Below are positions 1 through 62,678 of a DNA stretch of 64,000 nucleotides, piece by piece. The notes under the pieces were generated by a model. That model did no database searches and had not been told where the DNA came from. It saw only the letters and a list, made by a program, of their open reading frames with translations. Made by a program: the position numbers and the translations under genes. The stretch is taken from the NCBI GenBank assembly GCA_038044925.1, contig JBBSZC010000004.1, forward strand, positions 11,166 to 75,165, read 5' to 3'. Positions within the stretch are counted from its first letter, which is position 1; each line of letters opens with the position of its first letter. The DNA is from Nanobdellota archaeon (GTDB taxonomy: Archaea > Nanobdellota > Nanobdellia > Pacearchaeales > GW2011-AR1).

Positions 1-77
1 TACACCACTTAAGCGATATTTTCTCGAGGAGGAATTATAATTTAGTTTTTTCACAATTTTAGACTAGATAATAAGAA

Positions 78-656: not shown

Positions 657-1916
657 ATGATTATTATGTTGCAAGAAATAAAGGAGATAATAACATTACA
701 GAAACGGGAAATTGAAATAAAACTCAAAGAAAAGTATATTGAAAGAAATCAGAATTTGAAACTGAATAATGATTTGATAAAAGTGATAATTGGGCCTAGA
801 AGAGCTGGAAAATCATTTTTTGCAATACACTTTTTAAACAATCAAGGGAAATTTGGCTATGTGAATTTTGACGATGAAAAATTAACAGATGTAGATAATT
901 ATGATGAAATAATTACTGCTATGAACTCTGTTTACGATAATCCTAAATTTGTTCTTTTTGACGAGATTCAAAATCTGCCTAAATGGGAGCTATTTGCCAA
1001 TAGACTGCAAAGGCAAGGATATAATTTAGTTATTACTGGAAGCAACTCAAATCTTTTAAGCAGAGAATTAGCAACACATCTTACTGGAAGACATTTATTA
1101 ACCAACATCTTTCCATTTTCTTTTAAAGAATATCTCAAATTTGAAAATAAAGAATTAATAACTGCTGAAATAAAAGAAAAGTTATCACAATACTTACTTA
1201 ATGGGGGTTATCCAGAAATATTGTCAAAAAAAGTTGAATTAAAAGAATATCTATCCAATTTGTTTAATTCAATATTATACAAAGACATAGTAAAAAGATA
1301 TAAAATAAGAAATCCTAAACAGATTGAGGATTTAGCGCTTTATCTTATTTCAAATATTGCAAAGGAATATTCTTATAATTCCTTAACAAATATTGGGAAA
1401 ATTAAAAGTTCGCATACAACAGAAAAATACATTGGTTATTTAGAAGAATCTTTTATTTTGTTTAGTCTAAGTAGATTTTCATATAAAGTTAAAGAGCAAT
1501 TATCTTCAAACAAAAAAATTTATTGTATAGATAATGGATTTATTCAAGCAAAGGCATTTAAAATAAGCCCGGATATAGGGAAACTTTATGAAAATATAGT
1601 TGCCTGTAAATTAAAAAAAGAAGAAATAGATGTAAAATCAAATTTTTATTATTGGAAAAACCAACAGCAAGAAGAAGTTGATTTTGTTATAAAAGAAGGA
1701 ATAAAAATTAAACAATTAATTCAAGTTTGCTTTAATATAAAAGATTTAGAAACTAAAAATAGAGAAATAAGAGCTTTAATTAAAGCAAGTAAAGAACTTA
1801 AATGCAATAATCTTTTGATAATAACCGAAGATACAGAAAGTGAAGAAAAAACAGAATGGTTTGGAGATAAGGCAGTTATAAAATTTATTCCATTATGGAA
1901 GTGGCTTTTAGATTAA
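657..1916 (+). CDS. AAA+ ATPase of the AAA_14/DUF4143 family
   Basis: Walker A IIGPRRAGKS and Walker B LFDEIQ; C-terminal DUF4143-like region typical of archaeal COG1373 ATPases. Confidence 0.8.
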   Translation: MIIMLQEIKEIITLQKREIEIKLKEKYIERNQNLKLNNDLIKVIIGPRRAGKSFFAIHFLNNQGKFGYVNFDDEKLTDVDNYDEIITAMNSVYDNPKFVLFDEIQNLPKWELFANRLQRQGYNLVITGSNSNLLSRELATHLTGRHLLTNIFPFSFKEYLKFENKELITAEIKEKLSQYLLNGGYPEILSKKVELKEYLSNLFNSILYKDIVKRYKIRNPKQIEDLALYLISNIAKEYSYNSLTNIGKIKSSHTTEKYIGYLEESFILFSLSRFSYKVKEQLSSNKKIYCIDNGFIQAKAFKISPDIGKLYENIVACKLKKEEIDVKSNFYYWKNQQQEEVDFVIKEGIKIKQLIQVCFNIKDLETKNREIRALIKASKELKCNNLLIITEDTESEEKTEWFGDKAVIKFIPLWKWLLD

Positions 1917-1930
1917 TTATATATCACGAG

Positions 1931-1970
1931 GAAAAATGTCAGGAAGTTAATCCTTAGGATTAAGTAATTC
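1931..1970 (+). repeat. direct repeat copy 1 flanking the TA cassette; 22-bp core TTAATCCTTAGGATTAAGTAAT (7-bp stem, 3-nt loop hairpin)
   Basis: Core identical to 2667-2688; the upstream gaaaa(a)tgt also matches. Confidence 0.8.
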
Positions 1971-2049
1971 ATTGAGTAAATTGTTGGTTCTTTAATCCTA
2001 TTCTCTCATAAAACAAAAAATATATAAACTATAGTCATTCTATAGAACT

Positions 2050-2289
2050 ATGGTAACAACAATTCAATTAAATGAGAATGTAAAAAATGCTCTAGATAGA
2101 TTAAAATCTAATAAAGAAACCTATGAAGACATAATTGTTAAGATGATTAATCAAATAGATGAACAGAAAAGAAAGCATATTGAACTGATGATCGAAGGGG
2201 CTAAGGAAACTGCTGAAGAAAGTTTAAAGATTACAAAAGAATTTGAGGCAATTGAAGAAGATTTTGATTGGGAATGGAAAGATAACTAA
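2050..2289 (+). CDS. putative antitoxin (RHH-like) of the MazF-family toxin
   Basis: 79-aa ORF ending 2 nt before the toxin start; N-terminal TTIQLNENVKNALDRLK resembles a ribbon-helix-helix strand-helix. Confidence 0.5.
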   Translation: MVTTIQLNENVKNALDRLKSNKETYEDIIVKMINQIDEQKRKHIELMIEGAKETAEESLKITKEFEAIEEDFDWEWKDN

Positions 2290-2290
2290 A

Positions 2291-2635
2291 ATGGAAATCA
2301 AGAAAGGGGATGTTGTTCTGGTAAATTTTGAACCTGTCAGGGGAAGTGAGCAGAGAGGGATTAGACCTTCACTAATTATACAAAATGATATTTTTAATAA
2401 GTACTCGCCAACTACAATTGTTGCCCCAATAACTTCAAAATTATTCAAAAAAGAATATCCTACTAATGTTTTTATAAAAAAAGAGGATTCAAAACTCAAT
2501 AGGGATTCAACTATTTTGTTAAATCAAATTAAAACCATTGATAAATCAAGAATCATAAAAAAGATAAGTTTGGTAGATATTTTTACTATGAACAAAGTGG
2601 ATAGAGCAATTAAGGTTAGTCTGGCAATTGATTAA
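2291..2635 (+). CDS. mazF: MazF/PemK-family endoribonuclease toxin
   Basis: KGDVVLVNFEPVRGSEQRGIRPSLIIQ and later IVAPITS match the MazF/PemK signature; start taken at the internal ATG at 2291 just after the antitoxin stop. Confidence 0.8.
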   Translation: MEIKKGDVVLVNFEPVRGSEQRGIRPSLIIQNDIFNKYSPTTIVAPITSKLFKKEYPTNVFIKKEDSKLNRDSTILLNQIKTIDKSRIIKKISLVDIFTMNKVDRAIKVSLAID

Positions 2636-2650
2636 TTCTAGATAATTAAG

Positions 2651-2690
2651 GAAAATGTTGCTATCTTAATCCTTAGGATTAAGTAATCGT
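2651..2690 (+). repeat. direct repeat copy 2 flanking the TA cassette
   Basis: 22/22 core identity with 1947-1968. Confidence 0.8.
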
Positions 2691-2703
2691 GTAGGTATGT
2701 TAC

Positions 2704-3357
2704 CTAAATTTCCATTAAAACCTCTCCTATGTTAACAACTCTCGCATCAGCGTCCATATCTAATCTTGGACAAGCAGTATTTATCCATGAGCCAATATGC
2801 GGGAAATTATCGAGATCTTTAAAATTTATATCGCTGGTGAGGAATAAATATGGAATCTTATTATTTTTTTCAAGCTTGTTCTTTATTTCTATTGCTTTTT
2901 TAAAATTCTCTTGTCCTGGTTTTAGAGAAACTATAATTCCAATGCTTTTTGAATGAAGGTATTTAATATAAGATGCTTGTTTTTTTCTTTTGAATAAATC
3001 TATTTCATTATTGTTAATTTTGTAAAAAGAATTTCCTTCTAATATATAAACAGGAATTTTACTTTCTAATTGAAATGCTATATTTATTGCGTGAAATTTT
3101 CCAGAGCCTATTAATATAACTGCATTTTCTTCCCTTAGATTTATTTTTGAACAGCCTAAAACCTGAGAGAATTGCCTTATTTTATGTTTTTTATTAAGAA
3201 TATTTTTTATTTCAAGTGCCTCATCTTGGAATTGTATAGAATAATAAATAGCTATATTTTTTGGCAGTTTTAATTTTTTTAAATTTGAAATTAATATGTT
3301 TCTGTCTAAATGAGATATTCTCTTTGCAGATATTAATATAGTTTTCATGAAAAACAT
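2704..3357 (-). CDS. Dph2-like (diphthamide synthesis radical-SAM) domain protein, apparently shortened
   Basis: C-terminal SWINTACPRLDMDAD resembles the conserved Cys region of Dph1/Dph2; only 217 aa. Confidence 0.35.
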   Translation of the reverse strand: MFFMKTILISAKRISHLDRNILISNLKKLKLPKNIAIYYSIQFQDEALEIKNILNKKHKIRQFSQVLGCSKINLREENAVILIGSGKFHAINIAFQLESKIPVYILEGNSFYKINNNEIDLFKRKKQASYIKYLHSKSIGIIVSLKPGQENFKKAIEIKNKLEKNNKIPYLFLTSDINFKDLDNFPHIGSWINTACPRLDMDADARVVNIGEVLMEI

Positions 3358-3539
3358 TAAGAAACAGGGGTTTTAAAGTTTTTGAATTAAGGATAATTCA
3401 CCCCGCATCAGGCTTATAGCCATGATGCTACGCTAAGAAATAAATTAATGTAGAAAACTTCAACTAATATGATTGCATATTTATAAATAACACCTAATTA
3501 ATTTGTGAATGTAATGAACAGAAATTAAGAGTAGACGAT

Positions 3540-3780
3540 GGCTGAATGTCAAGAACTATACACTAAAGCTTCAGGAATGTAAATTCCTGACAGTCATCAA
3601 AAATCTTTGATTTTTGAGATGTATAGCGTGTTCTTCTAGTTCTTGAGCACACTCAAGACATCAAGATTTGCTTTAAGTTCTTGCAAATCTTGTGGCCGTC
3701 AAGATGCTTTGCATCTTGAGGTTTGCTTTTCCTTTCTCACGAACTAAAATAAGGAGTTTACATAAAATGCAAATCTTGAT
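3540..3780. other. array of imperfect palindromes (CAAGAT...ATCTTG arms); candidate structured ncRNA or operator array in a 420-bp intergenic region
   Basis: Hairpins at 3572-3589, 3597-3617, 3642-3657, 3662-3692 (10-bp stem) and 3700-3718; unusually long intergenic gap. Confidence 0.25.
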
Positions 3781-3783
3781 GTA

Positions 3784-4182
3784 TTAATATTCAAATTTGT
3801 TTGTTTTTTTGTCTTCTTTTGGGACTATAGTTTCTTTGTGGATCTTTGCGAATGAAGGAGTTACAATAACTATATTTTCTCCGAAACCTGCAATGCTTCC
3901 TTCAAGAGCTTCTGTTGTTTTTTTTATTTTTGATACTGCCCTCTTTAATTCAATAGAATCCTTTTGTCTAAGAGTTTTAATATCTATTACTGCAATTGTG
4001 TAGCCTTCCCTCAAAGAAGTTAAAATTTCATTGACATCTTCATAATTTTTTAAGAAAAATAATTTTACAAGAACCTTGCTGTCTTTTTCTTTTGCACCTA
4101 AATCCAATTCAAGATACTCGTCGCCTGAATATTCGTCGTTGAGAGAACCTCTCAACCTCTTTCTTAATCTATCAAACACCAT
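3784..4182 (-). CDS. sepF: cell division protein SepF (DUF552)
   Basis: YEDVNEILTSLREGYTIAVIDIKTL...GENIVIVTP matches the SepF family; FtsZ is 3 kb away. Confidence 0.75.
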   Translation of the reverse strand: MVFDRLRKRLRGSLNDEYSGDEYLELDLGAKEKDSKVLVKLFFLKNYEDVNEILTSLREGYTIAVIDIKTLRQKDSIELKRAVSKIKKTTEALEGSIAGFGENIVIVTPSFAKIHKETIVPKEDKKTNKFEY

Positions 4183-26982: not shown

Positions 26983-27273
26983 TTACCATTCAACTTTTAG
27001 ACAAGCAGGAAGTTTCCCTTTCAATCTTTTTTGTTCTGCAAAATAATGTTTTCTACATAAATAACTCCATCCTTTCTTTTTGCTATTTTTCATTGCACAT
27101 GGATAAACTTCTGCATAAGCTATATTTGTGCATTTTCCTTTAAAGTCACAGCATGGAAATTTTTTTCTATTTTTCAATATTTTAAATCTTATTATAGAAT
27201 CTGCTTTTTCATTCTTATTTTTGAGAATTCTTAATTTTCCCTGTTTATCATAATATTTTTTTATAATTTTCAT
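26983..27273 (-). CDS. small Cys/His-rich (zinc-ribbon-like) protein
   Basis: PCCDFKGKC...YPC...LCRKHYF; start set at the ATG 2 nt after the upstream gene stop. Confidence 0.3.
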   Translation of the reverse strand: MKIIKKYYDKQGKLRILKNKNEKADSIIRFKILKNRKKFPCCDFKGKCTNIAYAEVYPCAMKNSKKKGWSYLCRKHYFAEQKRLKGKLPACLKVEW

Positions 27274-27274
27274 T

Positions 27275-27607
27275 TCAGTAGTGAAACCTTCTTCCATAAT
27301 CTTTATGATTAAACCACTCAAGGATAACTGCTAATATCTGAACTTTATTTGGAGTTTTAATAGTATAAATCAGTCTCCATCTATCTGGCAAATCATATTT
27401 CCAAAGATTATTTATTTGGTATTTTTGTATATATTCTTTTGGAAAAAGTCTTTTTGGAATGGGAATTCCACAAAAAGCATTTTGTTTTATATCCCCTATT
27501 GCTCTCTTAATATACTCTTTAATTTCATCGCTTTCTTCTAATTCAACAAATTCTTTTTCAATCTTATCTTCAGCAAAAACAACTTCAGAGGGTTTTAAAA
27601 ATCTCAT
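27275..27607 (-). CDS. RelE/ParE-superfamily toxin-like protein
   Basis: C-terminal WKYDLPDRWRLIYTIKTPNKVQILAVILEWFNHKDY resembles the RelE/YoeB core strands and a Tyr near the C-terminus. Confidence 0.45.
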   Translation of the reverse strand: MRFLKPSEVVFAEDKIEKEFVELEESDEIKEYIKRAIGDIKQNAFCGIPIPKRLFPKEYIQKYQINNLWKYDLPDRWRLIYTIKTPNKVQILAVILEWFNHKDYGRRFHY

Positions 27608-27608
27608 A

Positions 27609-27878
27609 TTAGTATCTTTTTCTATTCATAAATTTTTTTGCAGATTCTGGGCTCCAAATATAGACTAAGATTCCTTCTTTGCTTACTGCTATCTTGTTTA
27701 TGCTTTGTAAATAATTCAAGATAACTAAATAAGTCTGCCACATAACTTTTTTAGGTAATTTTTTCCATAATTCTGTTCTATTAAATTCTCCACTATATTC
27801 TTCAATAGTTCTCTCTACCATTAAAACTGTTTCTAAAGTCGGGCTTCTTGCTATTGGATTTATTCTTTCTGTTTCCAT
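27609..27878 (-). CDS. hypothetical small protein (candidate partner of the RelE-like ORF)
   Basis: 89-aa ORF ending 1 nt before the RelE-like start. Confidence 0.3.
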   Translation of the reverse strand: METERINPIARSPTLETVLMVERTIEEYSGEFNRTELWKKLPKKVMWQTYLVILNYLQSINKIAVSKEGILVYIWSPESAKKFMNRKRY

Positions 27879-27925
27879 AATATATTATATATCAATTGAT
27901 ATATAAATCTTTCGTTTTATGTAGC

Positions 27926-27946
27926 TAACTTAATCCTAAGGATAAA
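27926..27946 (-). repeat. inverted copy of the palindromic repeat core (ATCCTTAGGATTAAGT) directly abutting the 3' end of tRNA-Arg
   Basis: Reverse complement TTTATCCTTAGGATTAAGTTAG shares a 16-nt core with the TA-flanking repeats. Confidence 0.6.
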
Positions 27947-28082
27947 CGCCCCCACGAGGATTTGAACCTCGGTCTCAACCTTCTTACTTTATCTCCTTGA
28001 AATCTAGGAGAGGTAGTGTCAGGAGAACCTTGGTTCTCCCACATCCGCAAGGTCGTGTTCTATCCAACTGAACTATAGGGGC
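27947..28082 (-). tRNA. tRNA-Arg (anticodon GCG) with an intron of about 63 nt
   Basis: Reverse complement: acceptor GCCCCTA/TGGGGGC, D arm GTTC-AGTTGGATA-GAAC, anticodon stem CGACC/GGTTG, loop TTGCGG plus spliced-in A, T arm CGAGGTTCAAATCCTCG, discriminator G. Confidence 0.6.
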
Positions 28083-30291: not shown

Positions 30292-30303
30292 ACGCCCCCG
30301 CCA
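30292..30303. repeat. partial duplicate of the tRNA-Ser 3' end (ACGCCCCCGCCA), putative att-like site
   Basis: 12/12 identity with 31676-31687, a GC-rich 12-mer in a roughly 29% GC genome. Confidence 0.5.
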
Positions 30304-30382
30304 TAAGTTAACAGGGTATAACAACGCCTTCTTTTAATTATTCATTTTGTCGAGGAGAATAGAGTTTTTAAATCTTGTCGAG

Positions 30383-31282
30383 CTAAAACCTAATTCTCTC
30401 TTCTTTCATTAGTTCAATTAAAAATTTAACAAGTGGTCTTAAATCTCCTTTTAATTGTGAAGTTTCAAGAGCATTATAATATTCGTGTTTTCTTTTATTG
30501 GGGATATTTATCATAGGATACCCCTTTTTATGAAGTATAAAATTCATTAATAATCTTCCAACTCTTCCATTTCCATCAACGAAAGGGTGAATTGTTTCAA
30601 AAGCTGAATGAAAATAAGCAGATAAAACCAATGGATGAATCTTATTCTTATTTTTAGTATACCAAGAAAGCAAAGAAGCCATTTCTTTTGAAACTTCCTC
30701 TGGTTTTGGTGGCAACCATTCAGTTCCCCTAATATAAACTTGCAGAGTTCTATATTTTCCTATCTGATTATTTAATTCTGGTTTTAATATATTCTTGACT
30801 ACAATCTCATGTAATTCTAAAATTAAATCCTTAGTAATTTCTTGCCTCGTTTTAAGGATATAATCAAAAGCCTCTTTATGATTAACAATTTCATTTATCT
30901 CTCTCAGAGATTTTCTTGGAGTTATATTTTCAAATAAAAGCTGAGAAGTTTCTTGAAGTGTTAATGTGTTTCCCTCAATATTAGTAGAATCGTAAGTGAA
31001 TAAAGAAACAAAAGATTCATATCTATTTTCCAAATTTGCTTTTGGTTGCTTTGCATATTCTTTTTTTATTTTTTCAATTTCTTCTTTCTCTTTATCTGTT
31101 AATAGAGTATTAAGCAAGTTAAGTTCTCTATCTGCTTTCTTCTCTTCTTCAATTAATTTCTTCTTATCTAAATTTAACCCCAGATAAATTCTTTTTTTTA
31201 TTATATCCTTTCCCTTTCTTATAGAAATAACTCTATAATAATACTTTTTCCCATTTCTTTCTTTTATCTCTGTATAAACCAT
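30383..31282 (-). CDS. Fic/Doc-family (Fido) protein
   Basis: Canonical Fic motif HPFVDGNGRVGRLL. Confidence 0.8.
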   Translation of the reverse strand: MVYTEIKERNGKKYYYRVISIRKGKDIIKKRIYLGLNLDKKKLIEEEKKADRELNLLNTLLTDKEKEEIEKIKKEYAKQPKANLENRYESFVSLFTYDSTNIEGNTLTLQETSQLLFENITPRKSLREINEIVNHKEAFDYILKTRQEITKDLILELHEIVVKNILKPELNNQIGKYRTLQVYIRGTEWLPPKPEEVSKEMASLLSWYTKNKNKIHPLVLSAYFHSAFETIHPFVDGNGRVGRLLMNFILHKKGYPMINIPNKRKHEYYNALETSQLKGDLRPLVKFLIELMKEERIRF

Positions 31283-31400
31283 AATATTCTATACGTCTAC
31301 GTCATTTAAATATCTTTTGGTGTAGTAGACGTACATGTTCTTAATTGACAAAGATTAAAAGAAGGTCAATATAAATCAATACTAACAGAAAAAGAAATAA

Positions 31401-31634
31401 TTAAAAATCTTCGGCCATGTCTTCATATTCACTTAAGTCTAATTTTCCACTATCAACTTTCTCTCTTAATTTTTTCACCTTTTCAGTTGATTCTTCAATC
31501 TTGTCTTTTCCAATAGAAGAAACAAAAAGATTTAATTCTATTAAATTAAATTCATTATCAACTGCCTTAATTCTTACATCAAGGTTTCTATGATGTATTG
31601 GAATTTTAAGATTAACCATAGAATACAGAAGCAA
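31401..31634 (-). CDS. hypothetical small acidic protein
   Basis: 77-aa ORF between Fic and tRNA-Ser. Confidence 0.25.
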   Translation of the reverse strand: MLLYSMVNLKIPIHHRNLDVRIKAVDNEFNLIELNLFVSSIGKDKIEESTEKVKKLREKVDSGKLDLSEYEDMAEDF

Positions 31635-31676
31635 CCCCCTTATTTAAGAGTTGCTAACTGTAATGAAAACATTACA

Positions 31677-31756
31677 CGCCCCCGCCAGGAATCGAACCTG
31701 GGAGCCCAAAGGGCATGGTTCTCAAGACCATTGCTCTACCACTGAGCGACAGAGGC
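31677..31756 (-). tRNA. tRNA-Ser (anticodon TGA), no intron
   Basis: Reverse complement: GCCTCTG acceptor, D arm GCTC-AGTGGTA-GAGC, anticodon stem ATGGT/ACCAT, loop CTTGAGA, long variable arm, T arm CCAGGTTCGATTCCTGG. Confidence 0.7.
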
Positions 31757-36403: not shown

Positions 36404-37455
36404 TTAAAGGGAGCTAGGGATGGGTGCATAAATAGCTTTTACAACATTCCTCCTTAACTTAAAGCTATTAGCCCACTTTGCATAGGCGTTCCAACCATTA
36501 AAACTTTCTAATAGTTTTTCCTTACTTAATTCTCCGCTTTTGTGTTGTCTTATTCTGAATATTATATTTCTTAAATTTTTCTTTCTTAACAAGTTATAGT
36601 GATAGAATTTTCTAAACCCTACAAAATCAATTCCTCTTGATAGAGGAATTATTTTAGATTTCTGAGAATGTAGTTCTAGCTTTAATTTTTCTTTCAATAA
36701 TCTGTTTATTTGCTCTTTCCACACTTCTAGTTGTTCCTTAGAATTATGAAGAATAACAAAATCATCTACATATCTAATATAATATCTAGCCCGTAACTTA
36801 TTCTTAACAAACCAATCCAATTCGTGAAGATAAACGTTGGCGAAGAATTGGGAGGTTAGATTGCCGAGAGGCATTCCTTTCTCGCAAAAACTCGTTCGCC
36901 CCCCCCCCCGAACGAGTTCGGGCTGTTATTAAGAATCTGACCAATCAACCAAATAACTTTTTTATCTTTAATCTTTCTGCTTAAAATTTCTATTAAAATC
37001 TTGTAATTAACTTCTTTAAAATAATGCTTTATGTCTGCTTTCAAACAAAAGGAAATTCTGCTATTGTTTTTAGTAACTTTTCTCTGAAATAATTCAAATC
37101 TTTTAAGTGCAAATAAATTCCCCTTTCCTACTCTGTTCGCACAAGAATCATAAATAAAAGATTTGTCAAAAAGTGGCTCAATTATTCTAACAACTGCATG
37201 ATGAACTATTCTATCGGGAAAGGCAGACTTTGAAATTTTGCGGGTTTTTGGGTCTCTTAACACAAAGTTCTTTAGAGGTTCTGGCTTATATGTCTGATTT
37301 TTTAGCTTATCTGACAAGCTGATTAGATTTTTAAATAAATTAGCTTCAAATTCAATAACATAGTTCTTTTTAGTCTTGCCTTTTCTTGCTTTTCTCCAAG
37401 CAAGAATTAAGTTAGACAAATTATAAATCTGCTCATATAAGTTATTAGTTTCCAT
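36404..37455 (-). CDS. DGR-type reverse transcriptase, split into two ORFs (37455-36856 and 36874-36404) by a frameshift inside a G11 homopolymer
   Basis: N-terminal LILAWRKARKGK; motif 3 ADIKHYFKEV; motif 4 KGMPLGNLTSQFFANVYLHELD; motif 5 YVDDFVI; adding one G (12 instead of 11) gives continuous ...NSFGGGGRTSFCEKGMPLGN... Confidence 0.8.
36891..36917. repeat. C11 (G11 on the coding strand) homopolymer flanked by a 10-bp inverted repeat, AACTCGTTCG-C(n)-CGAACGAGTT, inside the RT gene
   Basis: 11 consecutive C at 36899-36909 in a roughly 29% GC genome; flanking arms perfectly complementary. Confidence 0.85.
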
Positions 37456-37484
37456 AATAAGTATAAAGTCTTAGGAGTTAGAGC

Positions 37485-37576
37485 TATTCCAGACGCATAA
37501 CCATACTCGACATCAGCATGGTAGTTGCCATTGACATTCAACCTGTCACCATTCCAGTTCGAATTCACCGCGGATA
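37485..37576 (-). other. DGR template repeat (TR)
   Basis: About 89-nt repeat of the VR; at all 13 mismatches TR has A on the coding strand; TR codons AAT/AAC dominate. Confidence 0.85.
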
Positions 37577-37746
37577 GTTATGTAGCCAGTTTACCTTCCT
37601 ATCACTGAAATTCCTCGTAAGGAAAATCTGTATTTTATGACTTAAAATAAAATCAAATATGTCTTGATAAATTGGCATGTAGCCCTAGCTTATCGCTAAG
37701 ACAAAAATTAACTAAAATAAGAATTAATAAACCTTTACTTATTTTT

Positions 37747-38442
37747 TTACGAAGCGCCTTCGGCGCTTTTTGGCAATACCCCAGACGCAAAACCATACCC
37801 GACATCAGCATGGTAGTAGCCATGGACATACAACCTGACACCAAGCCAGTCCGAATCCACCGCGGTATATTTTTTCAAATCTCTATTTTGAGAGTCTAAA
37901 GCACCAACATAAGGTGCTTTTCTGCTTATTTTTTCAGCAACTCTTGCTACAACATCTTCAGCGAAATCTTTATCTGTAACTTGTCCAATTATATAAGAAT
38001 TTGCAACTAAATCTGAAACTGACTGGTTTCCTGTCTTAAATCCATATTTAACTAATCTTACTGCCTTATCTCCATCTTTCATTCTTTTTATTAAACTTGC
38101 CCTATCTGTTGGCATAGTTCCATCAATATTATCATAAAGAATAACATCTTCTTTTCCCCATAAATTCTCAGTAGTCGTCAATAGCCATTGGTTTTTTACT
38201 CTGGAAACTATATCCTTGCATTGTTTATTATCTGGATTGCTTAATGCAAAATCTATTAAAGAAAATGTCTGGGCAGTTGTAGGTCTTAGTAATTTTCCTT
38301 TTGTAATTGCACCCATAACTTTTTGGTGAGTTCCTGGTCCTTCAAGAGGATAAGCACTTGTTAAAATCCCATTTCCGTGCTTATAATCCATTTCGGTTCT
38401 AGCTATTCTTATTCTTCCACCATTTAGTTCTTTAGTTATCAT
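37747..38442 (-). CDS. DGR target (variable) protein with C-terminal VR; N-terminal domain of unknown family
   Basis: 231-aa ORF; the last roughly 40 aa are encoded by the VR; no obvious signal peptide. Confidence 0.75.
   Translation of the reverse strand: MITKELNGGRIRIARTEMDYKHGNGILTSAYPLEGPGTHQKVMGAITKGKLLRPTTAQTFSLIDFALSNPDNKQCKDIVSRVKNQWLLTTTENLWGKEDVILYDNIDGTMPTDRASLIKRMKDGDKAVRLVKYGFKTGNQSVSDLVANSYIIGQVTDKDFAEDVVARVAEKISRKAPYVGALDSQNRDLKKYTAVDSDWLGVRLYVHGYYHADVGYGFASGVLPKSAEGAS
37750..37773 (-). promoter_or_regulatory. GC-rich stem-loop (7-bp stem AAGCGCC/GGCGCTT, 4-nt loop) 8 nt downstream of the VR
   Basis: Perfect GC-rich hairpin in an AT-rich context, at the position of the homing-enhancing hairpin of characterised DGRs. 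Confidence 0.5.
37777..37868 (-). other. DGR variable repeat (VR) encoding the C-terminus of the target protein
   Basis: See TR; VR reads ...TAVDSDWLGVRLYVHGYYHADVGYGFASGV versus TR SAVNSNWNGDRLNVNGNYHADVEYGYASGI. Confidence 0.85.
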
Positions 38443-51900: not shown

Positions 51901-52077
51901 GATAAAAAATGGCGATAAAGAAAACAGGCAACACCAAAAACTATAAGTTTTTGGATGCCCCAAGAATTATAAATTCTTGCGGTTTTCTAATCAGCCATTT
52001 TAAAATAAAAAATATGATAAAAAATGGCGATAAAGAAAACAGGCAATTTTCTAATCAGCCATTTTAAAATAAAAAAT
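51901..52077 (+). repeat. two 31-nt units (U1 at 51901 and 52016; U2 at 51983 and 52047), each duplicated upstream of secY; the second U2 copy forms a 13-bp hairpin with the secY start
   Basis: Exact 31/31 duplicates; AATCAGCCATTTT...AAAATGGCTGATT spans the ATG at 52076. Confidence 0.7.
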
Positions 52078-55756: not shown

Positions 55757-55921
55757 TATGTATATTTTGTAAAAACGTTAAATATATATATATTTCTATT
55801 AAAGTTTGCGTCTTACTTAAGTGAGATTAAATAAAAGTAAAGAAAATATGAAGTTTTCTAATTCCCCATTTTGAGGGAATTAGTTAACAAAATAGAGAAT
55901 GATGAAAGGAGGTGAGTAAAA

Positions 55922-61399: not shown

Positions 61400-62632
61400 A
61401 TGATAAAAAAATTTCTTTCAAGCGAGCTTAGTAAAGGCATAGTAATACTATTTTTTTCTATGTTAGTTTATAATTTTATAAATTTTATTTTCCATTTTTT
61501 TATGGGAAGGGTTTTAGGGCCAAATGATTATGGAACTTTGGCTGTTTTGATGTCTATGATATACCTCTTTGGTATACCTGTGGAAGCAATACAAAATATG
61601 ATTACTAAATATACTTCTAAATTTAATATAAATAATGAAAATGGAAAAATTAAATTTTTAATGAAAAGGGCCCTTGGAAAGGGATTTTATATCTCTATTT
61701 TTTTATTTGGAATATTAATTATATTTTCTATTTTTCTATCTTTCTTTCTAAAAGTAAGTTTTTGGCTACTTTTAATAACTGACTTGGCGATATTTTCTTC
61801 TTTTTCATTGCCTGTTATTAGGGGGGTTCTTCAAGGACGAAAAAAATTCTTCAAATTAGGGAACAGTATGATAATTGAAACCTCTTTTAAATTAATATCC
61901 TCTTTATCTTTAGTAATCCTTGGATTAAAGGTATTTGGAGCAATAATAGGGGTTATATTTGGACTTCTTGCAAGTTTAATTTTTAGTTTATACTTTAATA
62001 AAGATATATTGCAAGAAAGAGAAGAAAAAATATCTTTTAAGTATATTTACTCTGAAAGTGTGCCTTATCTTATTGTTGTTGTAACAATACTTACTTTTTT
62101 CAGTTTAGACATTATCCTAGCTAAAAGATTTTTTTCTCCTGAGTTAGCAGGACAATATTCTGTTCTATCTATGCTTGGAAAAATGATTTTCCTTGGAACT
62201 TTTGCAATAAGCAAAGCAATGTTCCCTATCGCCTCTGAGAGATTTGAAAAAAAAGAAAATTCATCACAGCTTTTTAAAAAATCTTTAATATTAATAAGTA
62301 TATTATGCTTAATTGGCATAGCAATATATTATCTTTTTCCTGAAGAAATAGTTTGGTTGCTTTATGGTGAAAAATACTTAGAAATTTCCCATTTATTGGT
62401 TTATTCAGCAATATCTTTAAGTTTTTTATCCTTGAGCAATATCATACTATTATATTCTCTGTCTATTAATAGGATAAAAAAAGGGTATTTGTTGATTGGA
62501 TTTATAATTATTGAAATAGTTTTATTATTTGCTTTGGATAGTAGCATTGAAAGATATATAATGGGGTTTATGATTTCTAATATAGTAATGTTTATAGGAA
62601 GCCTTTTTTCTCTAGTAGAATGGAAAATATAG
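61400..62632 (+). CDS. oligosaccharide/polysaccharide flippase (Wzx/MOP superfamily)
   Basis: 12-TM layout. Confidence 0.6.
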   Translation: MIKKFLSSELSKGIVILFFSMLVYNFINFIFHFFMGRVLGPNDYGTLAVLMSMIYLFGIPVEAIQNMITKYTSKFNINNENGKIKFLMKRALGKGFYISIFLFGILIIFSIFLSFFLKVSFWLLLITDLAIFSSFSLPVIRGVLQGRKKFFKLGNSMIIETSFKLISSLSLVILGLKVFGAIIGVIFGLLASLIFSLYFNKDILQEREEKISFKYIYSESVPYLIVVVTILTFFSLDIILAKRFFSPELAGQYSVLSMLGKMIFLGTFAISKAMFPIASERFEKKENSSQLFKKSLILISILCLIGIAIYYLFPEEIVWLLYGEKYLEISHLLVYSAISLSFLSLSNIILLYSLSINRIKKGYLLIGFIIIEIVLLFALDSSIERYIMGFMISNIVMFIGSLFSLVEWKI

Positions 62633-62678
62633 AAATCAATAAAATTTCTAATTTCCCATTTTAAAAAAACAACAAAAA

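What the first reader, a model, noticed from the sequence alone, without database searches (positions are those of the whole stretch)
1931..2690. MazEF toxin-antitoxin cassette bracketed by about 40-bp direct repeats with a palindromic core
Identical 22-bp cores TTAATCCTTAGGATTAAGTAAT (1947-1968 and 2667-2688), with additional upstream similarity, flank exactly the two-gene antitoxin/MazF unit (2050-2635). Each core is an imperfect palindrome (7-bp stem, 3-nt loop). This looks like a cassette delimited by recombination or insertion sites (integron- or MITE-like), not chance.
Basis: seen in the sequence. Interest (0 to 1): 0.6.

Follow-up and report, generated by a model that had tools for sequence, protein, structure and literature searches.

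The report
Mobile toxin–antitoxin cassette in tiny archaeon
The repeats are real and look like the conserved attachment-site arms of small gene cassettes that, in many ultra-small (DPANN) archaea, pile up next to the arginine tRNA gene and share their end sequences with integrase-carrying plasmid-like elements; this toxin–antitoxin pair is one such cassette.

Summary
Observation confirmed. Each copy lies 30 nt after a stop codon, and none of 100 shuffles gave a match.

The motif is neither a local duplication nor a general terminator. The same 21-mer is exact in 63 loci from about 47 Pacearchaeota/Woesearchaeota/Nanoarchaeota species genomes. There it bounds 0.4-2 kb cassettes carrying toxin-antitoxin pairs, nucleotidyltransferase/HEPN pairs and methyltransferases. 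These cassettes are stacked after the 3' end of tRNA-Arg(GCG) and separated by an 11-nt copy of that tRNA end (TCGTGGGGGCR).

Homology between species stops at these sites. A mazEF pair 73%/64% identical sits in a complete cassette in another genome. Three relatives have dph2 directly abutting a membrane-protein gene, whereas this genome has a 2.7 kb, two-cassette island there.

The same left arm lies directly upstream of a 400-445 aa tyrosine integrase in about 9 kb primase-carrying elements.

Best reading: an integrase-less (CIME-like) cassette at a secondary site. It is not an integron or a MITE. The two repeats are the right arms of two consecutive cassettes. Mobilisation in trans is inferred, and no integrase is in the window.

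The parts
1..32 (+). Left-end arm of cassette A (variant 'Y3': CACCACTTAAGCGATATTTTCTCGAGGAGG). Its decayed core (tatctAGCAAGGGGCA) and palindrome TTAATCCTTAGGGTTAA lie just before the window start, at L006 7676-7708, directly after the stop codon of a conserved 128-aa membrane-protein gene.
   Evidence: the same Y3 sequence occurs in L067
78..539 (-). 153-aa ORF with no Pfam match; cargo of cassette A
657..1916 (+). AAA_14/DUF4143 ATPase gene; cargo of cassette A. Two other DUF4143 genes lie near such sites in other loci.
1917..1968 (+). Right-end arm of cassette A. P box (..ATCACGAGGAAAAATGTCAGGAAG), 17-bp palindrome O (1947-1963) and GTAAT.
   Evidence: nhmmer E 1.6e-11 to the P-O-X profile
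1969..2014 (+). Decayed junction and left end of the mazEF cassette. Core remnant TCATTGAGTAA (1969-1979, 5/11 match to TCGTGGGGGCA), half palindrome TTAATCC (1992-1998), and CTCTCATAAAAC (2003-2014), matching the start of the conserved left arm (ATCTCCTACATAAACC).
   Evidence: read; DNA homology to the L043 cassette begins at about 2010
2020..2045 (+). TATA-like box ATATATAAA (2020-2028) and CTATAG-N5-CTATAG dyad (2029-2045) just upstream of mazE. Likely promoter and operator, conserved in L043.
   Evidence: function inferred
2050..2289 (+). Antitoxin gene (79 aa; DUF7557/VapB-like)
   Evidence: 64% aa identity to the L043 homolog
2291..2635 (+). MazF/PemK toxin gene (114 aa)
   Evidence: E 1.6e-34; 73% aa identity to the L043 homolog; PemK is the commonest family among small ORFs near these sites, 7 of 119
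2636..2697 (+). Right-end arm of the mazEF cassette. P' (..AATTAAGGAAAATGTTGCTATC), palindrome O (2666-2682), GTAA (2683-2686) and core copy TCGTGTAGGTA (2687-2697, 8/11 match). Followed by TGTTACCTAAAT, which resembles the family-2 palindrome and overlaps the dph2 stop codon.
   Evidence: E 9.1e-11
2704..3357 (-). dph2-like gene (diphthamide synthesis). Conserved chromosomal flank that marks the right border of the island.
27947..28082 (-). tRNA-Arg(GCG) with a 63-nt intron. This is the primary target of the element family; its last 11 nt are TCGTGGGGGCG.
   Evidence: tRNA-Arg(GCG) also abuts the motif in L015, L038 and L040
27911..27946 (-). Third motif copy: palindrome TTTATCCTTAGGATTAA plus GTTAGCTACATAAAACGAA (a truncated left arm) immediately 3' of the tRNA.
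   Evidence: E 7e-8 to the O-Y profile
26983..27878 (-). Cargo genes downstream of the tRNA-Arg site: an 89-aa ORF, a 110-aa weak YoeB/ParE-like ORF and a 112-aa Cys-rich ORF. Homologous ORFs occur in cassettes of L062 and L011. No right end was recognisable.

Best explanation
The mazEF pair is an integrase-less integrative cassette. It belongs to a family of elements in Pacearchaeota/Woesearchaeota-type DPANN archaea that insert by site-specific recombination at the 3' end of tRNA-Arg(GCG). A complete unit reads: 11-nt core TCGTGGGGGCR (the last 11 nt of the tRNA); 17-bp palindrome O; a left arm of about 110 nt (CTACATAAACCGAATAACT plus repeated GTTGAAC boxes); promoter and 1-3 cargo genes; a right arm of about 22 nt (P, ..CACGAGGAAAAAGTTGGGGAG); palindrome O; GTAA; core. 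Each unit ends in a new copy of the core, so the next element can insert behind it and tandem arrays build up. Autonomous members of about 9 kb carry a 400-445 aa tyrosine integrase directly behind the same left arm, plus an archaeo-eukaryotic primase, a roughly 600-aa helicase-like protein and a resolvase. The small cassettes keep both arms but have lost these genes, like bacterial CIMEs, and are presumably moved in trans by such an integrase. In this window two cassettes sit at a secondary site between a membrane-protein gene and dph2: the 153-aa ORF plus ATPase, then mazEF. The two 22-mers are the right arms of these two consecutive cassettes. Recombination between them would delete mazEF precisely. 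Shown: the site architecture, its tRNA-Arg anchoring, cassette-bounded homology between species, the island as an insertion relative to relatives, and the physical linkage of the left arm to an integrase gene. Inferred: that this integrase acts on the arms, that cassettes move in trans, and where the strands cross (within or next to the 11-mer, or in the central 7 bp of the palindrome).
For: The 21-mer is exact in 63 loci from about 47 species-representative genomes. Flanks fall into four classes in all combinations: tRNA-end-O-left arm 25, right arm-O-core 32, tRNA-end-O-core 6, right arm-O-left arm 4. tRNA-Arg(GCG) abuts the motif in L015, L038, L040 and in the window. Left-end and right-end sites pair up co-oriented 400-2000 nt apart; 40 of 53 cassette ORFs are co-oriented. 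32 of 40 right arms lie 16-59 nt after a stop codon. Tandem junctions read P-O-GTAA-TCGTGGGGGCA-O-left arm. Inter-species homology blocks end at the sites: a RelE cassette at 84-89% nt identity in 5-6 species, ending 0-30 nt from O, and a methyltransferase cassette at 87.7% bounded by both sites. L043 carries a mazEF pair 73%/64% identical inside a full cassette in a different context. Relatives L089, L091 and L093 have dph2 and the membrane-protein gene 0-52 nt apart or overlapping; the window genome has 2.7 kb between them and L063 has a different island there. Integrase link: in L103 and L107/L108 the integrase start lies about 50-150 nt after core-O-left arm; in L109 it lies about 700 nt after, in L051 96 nt after a core, and in L106 it lies nearby in inverted orientation. 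A 47%-identical integrase in L110 sits after tRNA-Glu plus a different 7+3+7 palindrome, so the architecture is kept while specificity changes. Cargo near the sites is dominated by MazF, PIN, HEPN, nucleotidyltransferases and methyltransferases, with no recombinase inside cassettes.
Against: There is no integrase in the 64 kb window, and only 1 of the 63 genome loci has one next to a site, so trans-mobilisation is inferred. The right end of the integrase-bearing elements was not found to be P-O-core. One close integrase homolog (L115, 75% identity) lacks the O-left arm. The window cassette's left end and both flanking cores are decayed (5/11 and 8/11), so it may no longer be mobile. All five contigs from the source aquifer carry the cassette, so no within-population presence/absence was seen. 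At the secondary site the island carries core copies at both borders although relatives have none there, which a simple reciprocal crossover does not explain.
Confidence: 0.7

Rival explanations
1. Portable expression signals rather than recombination sites. The right arm plus palindrome acts as a 3' end or stability hairpin, and the left arm as a promoter or operator module. Cassettes are swapped between genomes only by homologous recombination across these conserved linkers, with no dedicated recombinase.
For: The right arm always follows a stop codon by about 30 nt. The left arm ends in a TATA-like box before the first gene. Most loci have no recombinase nearby. Conserved linkers of 70-180 nt could serve as homology arms.
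Against: There is no oligo-T tract after the hairpin, which is the usual archaeal terminator signal (established knowledge). The motif occurs only three times in 64 kb containing dozens of genes. The first copy abuts the last base of an intact tRNA, and each unit is followed by an 11-nt copy of the tRNA end, which is the signature of site-specific integration. The left arm sits directly before an integrase gene in autonomous elements. There is no RNA covariation and no Rfam match.
Confidence: 0.12
2. An integron-type system. The inter-cassette junction is an attC-like single-strand hairpin recombined by an IntI-like integrase, so the arrays would be clusters of attC sites lacking an integrase (CALINs), as reported for archaea.
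For: The arrays consist of short, mostly co-oriented cassettes rich in toxin-antitoxin genes. The tandem junction folds as a 66-nt imperfect hairpin in single-stranded DNA (dG -15 kcal/mol, z -4.55). GTTGAAC and GTTGGGG boxes resemble GTTRRRY. Archaeal integrons, including in Nanoarchaeota, are published, with toxin-antitoxin genes making up 10.5% of annotated cassette proteins (PMC9668308).
Against: Box order is GTT...(T)AC, the reverse of RYYYAAC...GTTRRRY. The sequence is conserved between cassettes and between species, whereas attC sites keep structure rather than sequence. Cassettes have their own TATA boxes. The array is anchored on a tRNA end with an 11-nt repeat. The linked integrases are part of primase-carrying elements, not an intI-attI platform. 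The motif is absent from the held supplements of PMC9668308.
Confidence: 0.06
3. Single-strand transposition of the IS200/IS605 type (palindrome-associated elements). A Y1 HUH transposase would recognise the subterminal hairpin O at both ends and insert 3' of ..GGGCR.
For: The same hairpin lies near both ends on the same strand. Insertion is orientation-specific. The flank on the left is a fixed short sequence.
Against: No Y1 transposase appears among the commonest families of 119 small ORFs near the sites (only the top 25 of 49 families were listed). Autonomous relatives carry a tyrosine integrase instead. The 11-mer is present on both sides.
Confidence: 0.04
4. Chance, or a purely local duplication of the 3' flank of the ATPase gene created when mazEF was inserted.
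For: The 58-nt similarity begins at both stop codons.
Against: 0 of 100 shuffles reproduce the match. The same sequence is exact in about 47 other species genomes in the same structural role.
Confidence: 0.01

Closest known systems
CIMEs (cis-mobilizable elements) and tandem accretion at tRNA genes in bacteria (ICESt1/CIME of Streptococcus; reviewed in PMC5704250)
   Same: The elements have lost integrase and transfer genes but keep both att sites. They are stacked in tandem at the 3' end of a tRNA gene because each integration recreates a target. Toxin-antitoxin and defence genes are the cargo.
   Different: These are archaeal (DPANN). The units are much smaller (0.4-2 kb). The arms are kept nearly identical across dozens of species. 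The parent element is a primase-carrying plasmid- or virus-like element, not a conjugative element. Mobilisation has not been shown.
Archaeal tRNA-targeting integrative elements with tyrosine integrases (reviewed in PMC8371274)
   Same: A tyrosine integrase gene lies next to the att site. Integration is at a tRNA gene with a duplicated tRNA segment. Tandem integrations and integrase-less remnants are known.
   Different: That review does not mention DPANN, Pacearchaeota or Woesearchaeota. Here the duplicated block is only 11 nt. It is flanked on both sides by a 17-bp 7+3+7 palindrome. The integrase gene is not split by integration, unlike SSV-type integrases.
Integron gene cassettes and attC arrays, including archaeal integrons (PMC9668308)
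   Same: Arrays of short, mostly co-oriented cassettes enriched in toxin-antitoxin and methyltransferase genes, each followed by a palindromic site. Most arrays have no integrase nearby.
   Different: The site is conserved in sequence, its box polarity is reversed, it is anchored to a tRNA end, and cassettes carry their own promoters. No IntI-attI platform was found.
MazEF/PemK type II toxin-antitoxin modules
   Same: A small antitoxin gene lies 1 nt upstream of a PemK-fold toxin gene, with a dyad operator-like sequence at the promoter.
   Different: The antitoxin is DUF7557/VapB-like rather than the canonical MazE (AbrB fold). Activity was not tested.
MITEs and IS200/IS605-derived palindrome-associated elements
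   Same: Short, non-autonomous, with hairpin-forming ends. A non-coding element of about 200 nt from a sister family occurs in L063.
   Different: The mazEF unit codes for proteins. Its ends are in direct rather than inverted orientation. No transposase is linked.

Membership tests
Type II toxin-antitoxin, MazF/PemK | Toxin with a PemK/MazF domain | tested here: met
   PF02452 E 1.6e-34, covering residues 4-110 of 114
Type II toxin-antitoxin, MazF/PemK | Small antitoxin gene immediately upstream in the same operon | tested here: met
   79-aa ORF 2050-2289, 1 nt before mazF; DUF7557 E 6.6e-7, VapB-like E 2e-4; the pair is conserved in L043
Type II toxin-antitoxin, MazF/PemK | Toxicity neutralised by the antitoxin | not testable with these tools
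   needs expression experiments
Integron gene cassette (attC) | Inverse core RYYYAAC at the 5' side and core GTTRRRY at the 3' side of the site | tested here: not met
   The junction reads GTTGGGGAG ... ATCTCCTAC, which is the opposite polarity
Integron gene cassette (attC) | Structure conserved but sequence variable between cassettes | tested here: not met
   The 21-mer is identical in 63 loci and about 47 genomes
Integron gene cassette (attC) | IntI integrase with attI at the head of the array (or a CALIN without it) | tested here: inconclusive
   The head of the array is tRNA-Arg. No integrase is in the window. The linked integrases belong to primase-carrying elements. The IntI-specific domain was not examined.
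MITE | Terminal inverted repeats, no coding capacity, target-site duplication | tested here: not met
   Two genes are present. The ends are P-O (right) and O-left arm (left) in direct orientation. The flanking 11-mers are copies of a tRNA end, not a duplication of the local target.
tRNA-targeting tyrosine-integrase integrative element | Sits at the 3' end of a tRNA gene and is flanked by a repeat of the tRNA 3' segment | tested here: met
   Met for the family. For the mazEF unit itself the flanking cores are decayed copies (5/11 and 8/11) at a secondary, non-tRNA site.
tRNA-targeting tyrosine-integrase integrative element | Element encodes its own integrase | tested here: not met
   No integrase is in the cassette or the window. 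One is present in relatives L103, L107/L108 and L109 behind the same left arm.
CIME-like integrase-less element | Retains the att arms but lacks integration and transfer genes | tested here: met
   The right arm is intact (E 9.1e-11 to the profile). The left arm is reduced to a remnant. The cargo is only mazEF.
CIME-like integrase-less element | Excised or integrated by the integrase of a related element | not testable with these tools
   needs read-level junction detection or biochemistry
IS200/IS605-derived palindrome-associated element | Y1 HUH transposase in autonomous copies | tested here: not met
   None among the commonest Pfam families of 119 small ORFs near the sites. This is a weak test: only the top 25 of 49 families are listed.

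The most novel reading that the evidence does not exclude
DPANN archaea of the Pacearchaeota/Woesearchaeota type have an integron-like gene-capture system built on a different chemistry. Hundreds of 0.4-2 kb defence and toxin-antitoxin cassettes each carry both att arms of a tyrosine-integrase plasmid family. They are actively excised, exchanged between species and re-stacked behind tRNA-Arg(GCG), or behind copies of its last 11 nt, by integrases supplied in trans. The near-perfect conservation of the arms across about 47 species would then reflect selection for continued mobility rather than recent common descent.
Probability: 0.35. Interest if true: 0.78.

Novelty: new variant of a known kind. 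Interest (0 to 1): 0.62.

Why it matters
DPANN archaea have tiny genomes and depend on hosts, and how they acquire and exchange accessory and defence genes is poorly known. This finding defines a concrete, sequence-searchable attachment site: an 11-nt tRNA-Arg end plus a 17-bp palindrome with conserved arms. It also defines a linked integrase family of at least 1,100 proteins at E<=1e-30. Together these appear to organise much of the toxin-antitoxin and defence cargo into cassette arrays in many species. That makes cassette flux in these uncultured lineages measurable from metagenomes. It also gives a defined integrase and att-site pair that could be tested biochemically, and possibly used as an integration tool for archaea that currently lack genetics.

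Tried and rejected
- Structured RNA: Rfam found nothing at the repeats, in the left arms of 15 loci, or at E<=1 over 1880-2760. RNAalifold on 23 left arms predicted only the O hairpin, with no covariation. Rejected.
- Viral origin: a scan of IMG/VR with the 17-mer gave 17 hits, all in unrelated contexts and so chance. The integrase has no close relative in IMG/VR.
- Recombinase inside or beside cassettes: a crude motif screen, tblastn and Pfam on 243 ORFs found only one adjacent integrase in the 63 genome loci.
- Close relatives of the source strain for a presence/absence test: the nearest Dph2 homologs are at most 54% identical. All five contigs of the same population carry the cassette.
- Right end of the tRNA-Arg island in the window: not recognisable.
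- Right end of the integrase elements: no P-O-core found.
- Cross-domain transfer suggested by locus L027, labelled 'Paceibacterota bacterium': rejected, because the contig encodes archaeal PolD DP2.
- Literature search for the motif sequences found nothing relevant.
- The single metagenome scan went on the tandem-junction pattern. In hindsight the predicted empty-site sequence would also have been worth scanning, since that collection contains the source aquifer's contigs.
Full report
**Observation.** No dinucleotide-preserving shuffle (0 of 100) gave any match with up to 3 mismatches. The similarity extends to 58 nt at 78% identity, 1911-1968 vs 2630-2687, and begins at two stop codons (family D13). 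The core is a perfect 7-bp stem with a 3-nt loop. Between the copies lie a 79-aa antitoxin (DUF7557/VapB-like) and a 114-aa MazF/PemK toxin. Upstream is an AAA_14/DUF4143 ATPase gene (657-1916). Downstream, in convergent orientation, is a dph2-like gene (2704-3357). Each core starts exactly 30 nt after the stop codon of a co-oriented gene. A third copy with 3 mismatches lies at 27925-27946 on the minus strand. It directly abuts the 3' end of a tRNA found by Rfam.

**Source.** The window has about 30% G+C. It is 100% identical over the compared stretches to a Nanoarchaeota/Woesearchaeota-type MAG contig (GCA_964363295.1) and to contigs from 0.1-µm filtrates of the Hainich aquifer. All five contigs covering the region carry the cassette.

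**The motif elsewhere.** A scan of one genome per species for TTWATCCTTAGGATTAAGTWA returned 63 loci from about 47 different Pacearchaeota/Woesearchaeota/Nanoarchaeota MAGs. Chance expectation for this pattern in that collection is about one hit by my estimate. The flanks fall into a small number of classes.
- On the left there is either the 3' end of a tRNA or a copy of it (..CTCGTGGGGGCR, 'B'), or a purine-rich box that follows a stop codon (..ATCACGAGGAAAAAGTTGGGGAG, 'P').
- On the right there is either GTAA plus TCGTGGGGGCR ('X'), or a conserved left arm ('Y') that starts (GTTAG|ATCTC)CTACATAAACCGAATAACT. The Y arm continues for about 110 nt with an inverted and a direct repeat of GTTGAAC-type boxes and ends in a TATA-like box.
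- All four combinations occur: B-O-Y 25, P-O-X 32, B-O-X 6, P-O-Y 4, plus partial sites.
- Where ARAGORN finds the abutting tRNA, it is tRNA-Arg(GCG) (L015, L038, L040).
- TCGTGGGGGCR is the last 11 nt of that tRNA: the end of the T stem, the 3' acceptor strand and the discriminator base.
- Tandem junctions read P-O-GTAA-TCGTGGGGGCA-O-Y.

**Cassettes.** B-O-Y and P-O-X sites pair up in the same orientation 400-2000 nt apart. They enclose 1-3 ORFs, and 40 of 53 ORFs are co-oriented with the sites. 32 of 40 P-O sites lie 16-59 nt after a stop codon. The cargo is dominated by the following families.
- MazF/PemK: 7 of 119 small ORFs.
- PIN and HEPN domains.
- Polβ-type nucleotidyltransferases: 10 of 124 larger ORFs.
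- SAM methyltransferases and RelE-type pairs.

No recombinase family is among the common families. An all-against-all comparison shows that inter-species homology is cassette-shaped.
- A RelE toxin-antitoxin cassette of about 600 nt is 84-89% identical in L025, L027, L033, L035 and L066. The alignments end 0-30 nt from the palindrome.
- A methyltransferase cassette (L016/L026, 87.7% identity) is bounded by both sites, including the 11-mers.
- L025 and L027 show the same 'P-O ... P-O' picture as the window.

**The window's cassette in context.** A mazEF pair 73%/64% identical at the protein level occurs in L043. It lies inside a complete unit in another genomic context: gene-P-O'-core-O'-Y-promoter-CTATAG-N5-CTATAG-mazEF-P'-O-GTAA-TCGTGGGGGCG. 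DNA homology with the window starts at about 2010 and runs to the right-end site. In the window the stretch 1969-2014 is a decayed version of core + palindrome + start of Y: TCATTGAGTAA .. TTAATCC .. CTCTCATAAAAC. The upstream 22-mer therefore belongs to the right arm of the preceding ATPase cassette, and the downstream one to the right arm of the mazEF cassette.

**Synteny.** In three relatives (L089, L091, L093) dph2 and a 129-aa membrane-protein gene converge and are 0-52 nt apart or overlap. In the window's genome the same two genes are separated by about 2.7 kb. The stretch begins immediately after the membrane-protein stop codon with a decayed core, a palindrome variant (TTAATCCTTAGGGTTAA) and a variant left arm (L006 7676-7742). 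It then contains the 153-aa ORF, the ATPase, mazEF and the final P-O-core. L063 has a different island at the same place: one cassette plus a non-coding sister-family element of about 200 nt. The region is thus an insertion at a secondary site. In the window, the left border core matches the consensus only in its right half (AGCAA|GGGGCA) and the right border core only in its left half (TCGTG|TAGGTA). This is what a crossover inside the 11-mer would leave. It is a single post hoc observation, and L063 has intact cores on both sides.

**Enzyme.** A scan of metagenome contigs for the tandem junction gave 10 loci. Two of them contain homologs of the one integrase seen next to a site in the genome loci (L051).
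- In L103 the order is P-O-GTAA-core-O-Y-TATA-integrase (437 aa; Phage_integrase plus SAM-like N-terminal domain). Small ORFs, an archaeo-eukaryotic primase domain protein, a 594-aa protein and a resolvase follow.
- The integrase family has 1,101 members at E<=1e-30, almost all 390-445 aa. Where sources name an organism it is Pacearchaeota, Woesearchaeota or Nanoarchaeota.
- Close homologs mostly have core-O-Y upstream. L107/L108 (72% identity) has it about 48 nt before the start, with a cassette array upstream. L109 (69%) has it about 700 nt upstream. L115 (75%) lacks it.
- More distant members keep the architecture with other specificities. In L110 (47%) the order is tRNA-Glu 3' end | TTTAACCTTAGGTTAAA (7+3+7 palindrome) | promoter | integrase. 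L116 (51%) has core-like sequences plus other palindromes.
- In the window itself tRNA-Ser (31677-31756, minus strand) is followed by another palindrome (TGTAATGTTTTCATTACA) plus GTTAGC, a 72-aa ORF and a Fic/DOC gene. An exact 11-nt repeat of the tRNA-Ser 3' end follows at 30293-30303. This is a second small cassette built the same way.

**Mechanism.** The best-supported reading is site-specific integration by this tyrosine-integrase family at the tRNA-Arg 3' end. The circular form of an element would carry P-O-GTAA-core-O-Y. The core is shared with the tRNA, and the two palindromes and the repeated GTTG boxes are candidate integrase-binding sites. Integration leaves the tRNA intact and places a second core at the far end, which can receive the next element. 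This explains the arrays. The cassettes keep the arms but not the integrase (CIME-like; definition in PMC5704250). Three points are not shown: that the integrase acts on these arms, that cassettes move in trans, and the exact crossover point. The palindrome has the 5+7+5 geometry of a T arm, so crossover in its central 7 bp remains possible, and either placement predicts the same junction classes. Two facts argue for selection on the arms rather than passive decay: their near-identity across about 47 species, and the fact that the cargo differs between units. This argument is itself an inference.

**Rivals.**
- Expression-signal linkers exchanged by homologous recombination (0.12). This fits the position after stop codons and before TATA boxes, but not the tRNA anchoring, the 11-nt repeats, the rarity of the motif (3 copies in 64 kb) or the integrase linkage.
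- Integron attC (0.06). The junction folds into a 66-nt imperfect hairpin as single-stranded DNA. However, the box polarity is reversed, the sequence is conserved, and there is no IntI-attI platform. The motif is absent from the held supplements of the archaeal integron paper.
- IS200/IS605-like single-strand transposition (0.04). No Y1 transposase was found.
- Chance or local duplication. Refuted.

**Novelty.** tRNA-targeting tyrosine-integrase elements, tandem accretion and integrase-less derivatives are known kinds (PMC8371274, PMC5704250). I found no description of this DPANN family, its composite site or its cassette arrays. I classify it as a new variant of a known kind. 'Integron- or MITE-like' describes the behaviour loosely but not membership.

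Noticed in passing
window 30293-31756 (minus strand): A second tRNA-anchored mini-island. tRNA-Ser(TGA) 31677-31756 is followed by palindrome TGTAATGTTTTCATTACA (31659-31676) plus GTTAGC, a 72-aa ORF (31401-31619), a Fic/DOC gene (30383-31282), and then an exact 11-nt repeat of the tRNA-Ser 3' end TGGCGGGGGCG at 30293-30303.
   Followed up: partly
window 36404-38442 (minus strand): A diversity-generating retroelement. Reverse transcriptase split into two ORFs (36404-36874 and 36856-37455). Template repeat 37489-37573. Rfam RT-16 RNA at 37577-37701. Variable repeat 37781-37865 inside ORF 37747-38442. All 10 differences between the two repeat copies fall at T on the plus strand of the template copy, which is A on the coding strand.
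   Followed up: partly
window 3357-3784: A 430-nt gene-free stretch between dph2 and sepF with three hairpins sharing CAAGAT/ATCTTG-type stems. No Rfam match at E<=1. Four independent contigs of the same population end at window 3574-3600. Relatives have an 80-90 aa ORF here.
   Followed up: partly
L063 4335-4545 (minus strand); also the left or right flanks of L020, L026, L032, L033, L034, L041: A sister family with palindrome TTAACCTAAGGTTAA and inverted boxes ATCGACGCTGA / TCAGCGTCGAT near both ends. In L063 it is a non-coding, MITE-like unit of about 200 nt flanked by the same 11-nt cores.
   Followed up: partly
L027 (DAOTCN010000002.1, 379 kb): The record is labelled 'Candidatus Paceibacterota bacterium' but encodes the archaeal DNA polymerase D large subunit (DP2). 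It carries the same RelE cassette between P-O sites, so the label is probably wrong and this is not cross-domain transfer.
   Followed up: yes
window 51966-52075, 55837-55882, 62627-62672: Four copies of a 46-nt motif (..TTTTCTAATCAGCCATTTTAAAATAAAAA) at 70-80% identity, apparently upstream of genes. Possibly a shared promoter or leader element.
   Followed up: no
L107 7560-7620 and 9770-9826: Some cassettes end without the palindrome, in a different right arm (..ATCATAAAAAGTGTGATACGAA | TCGTGGGGGCG). The P-O arm is therefore one of several right-end types used with the same core.
   Followed up: no
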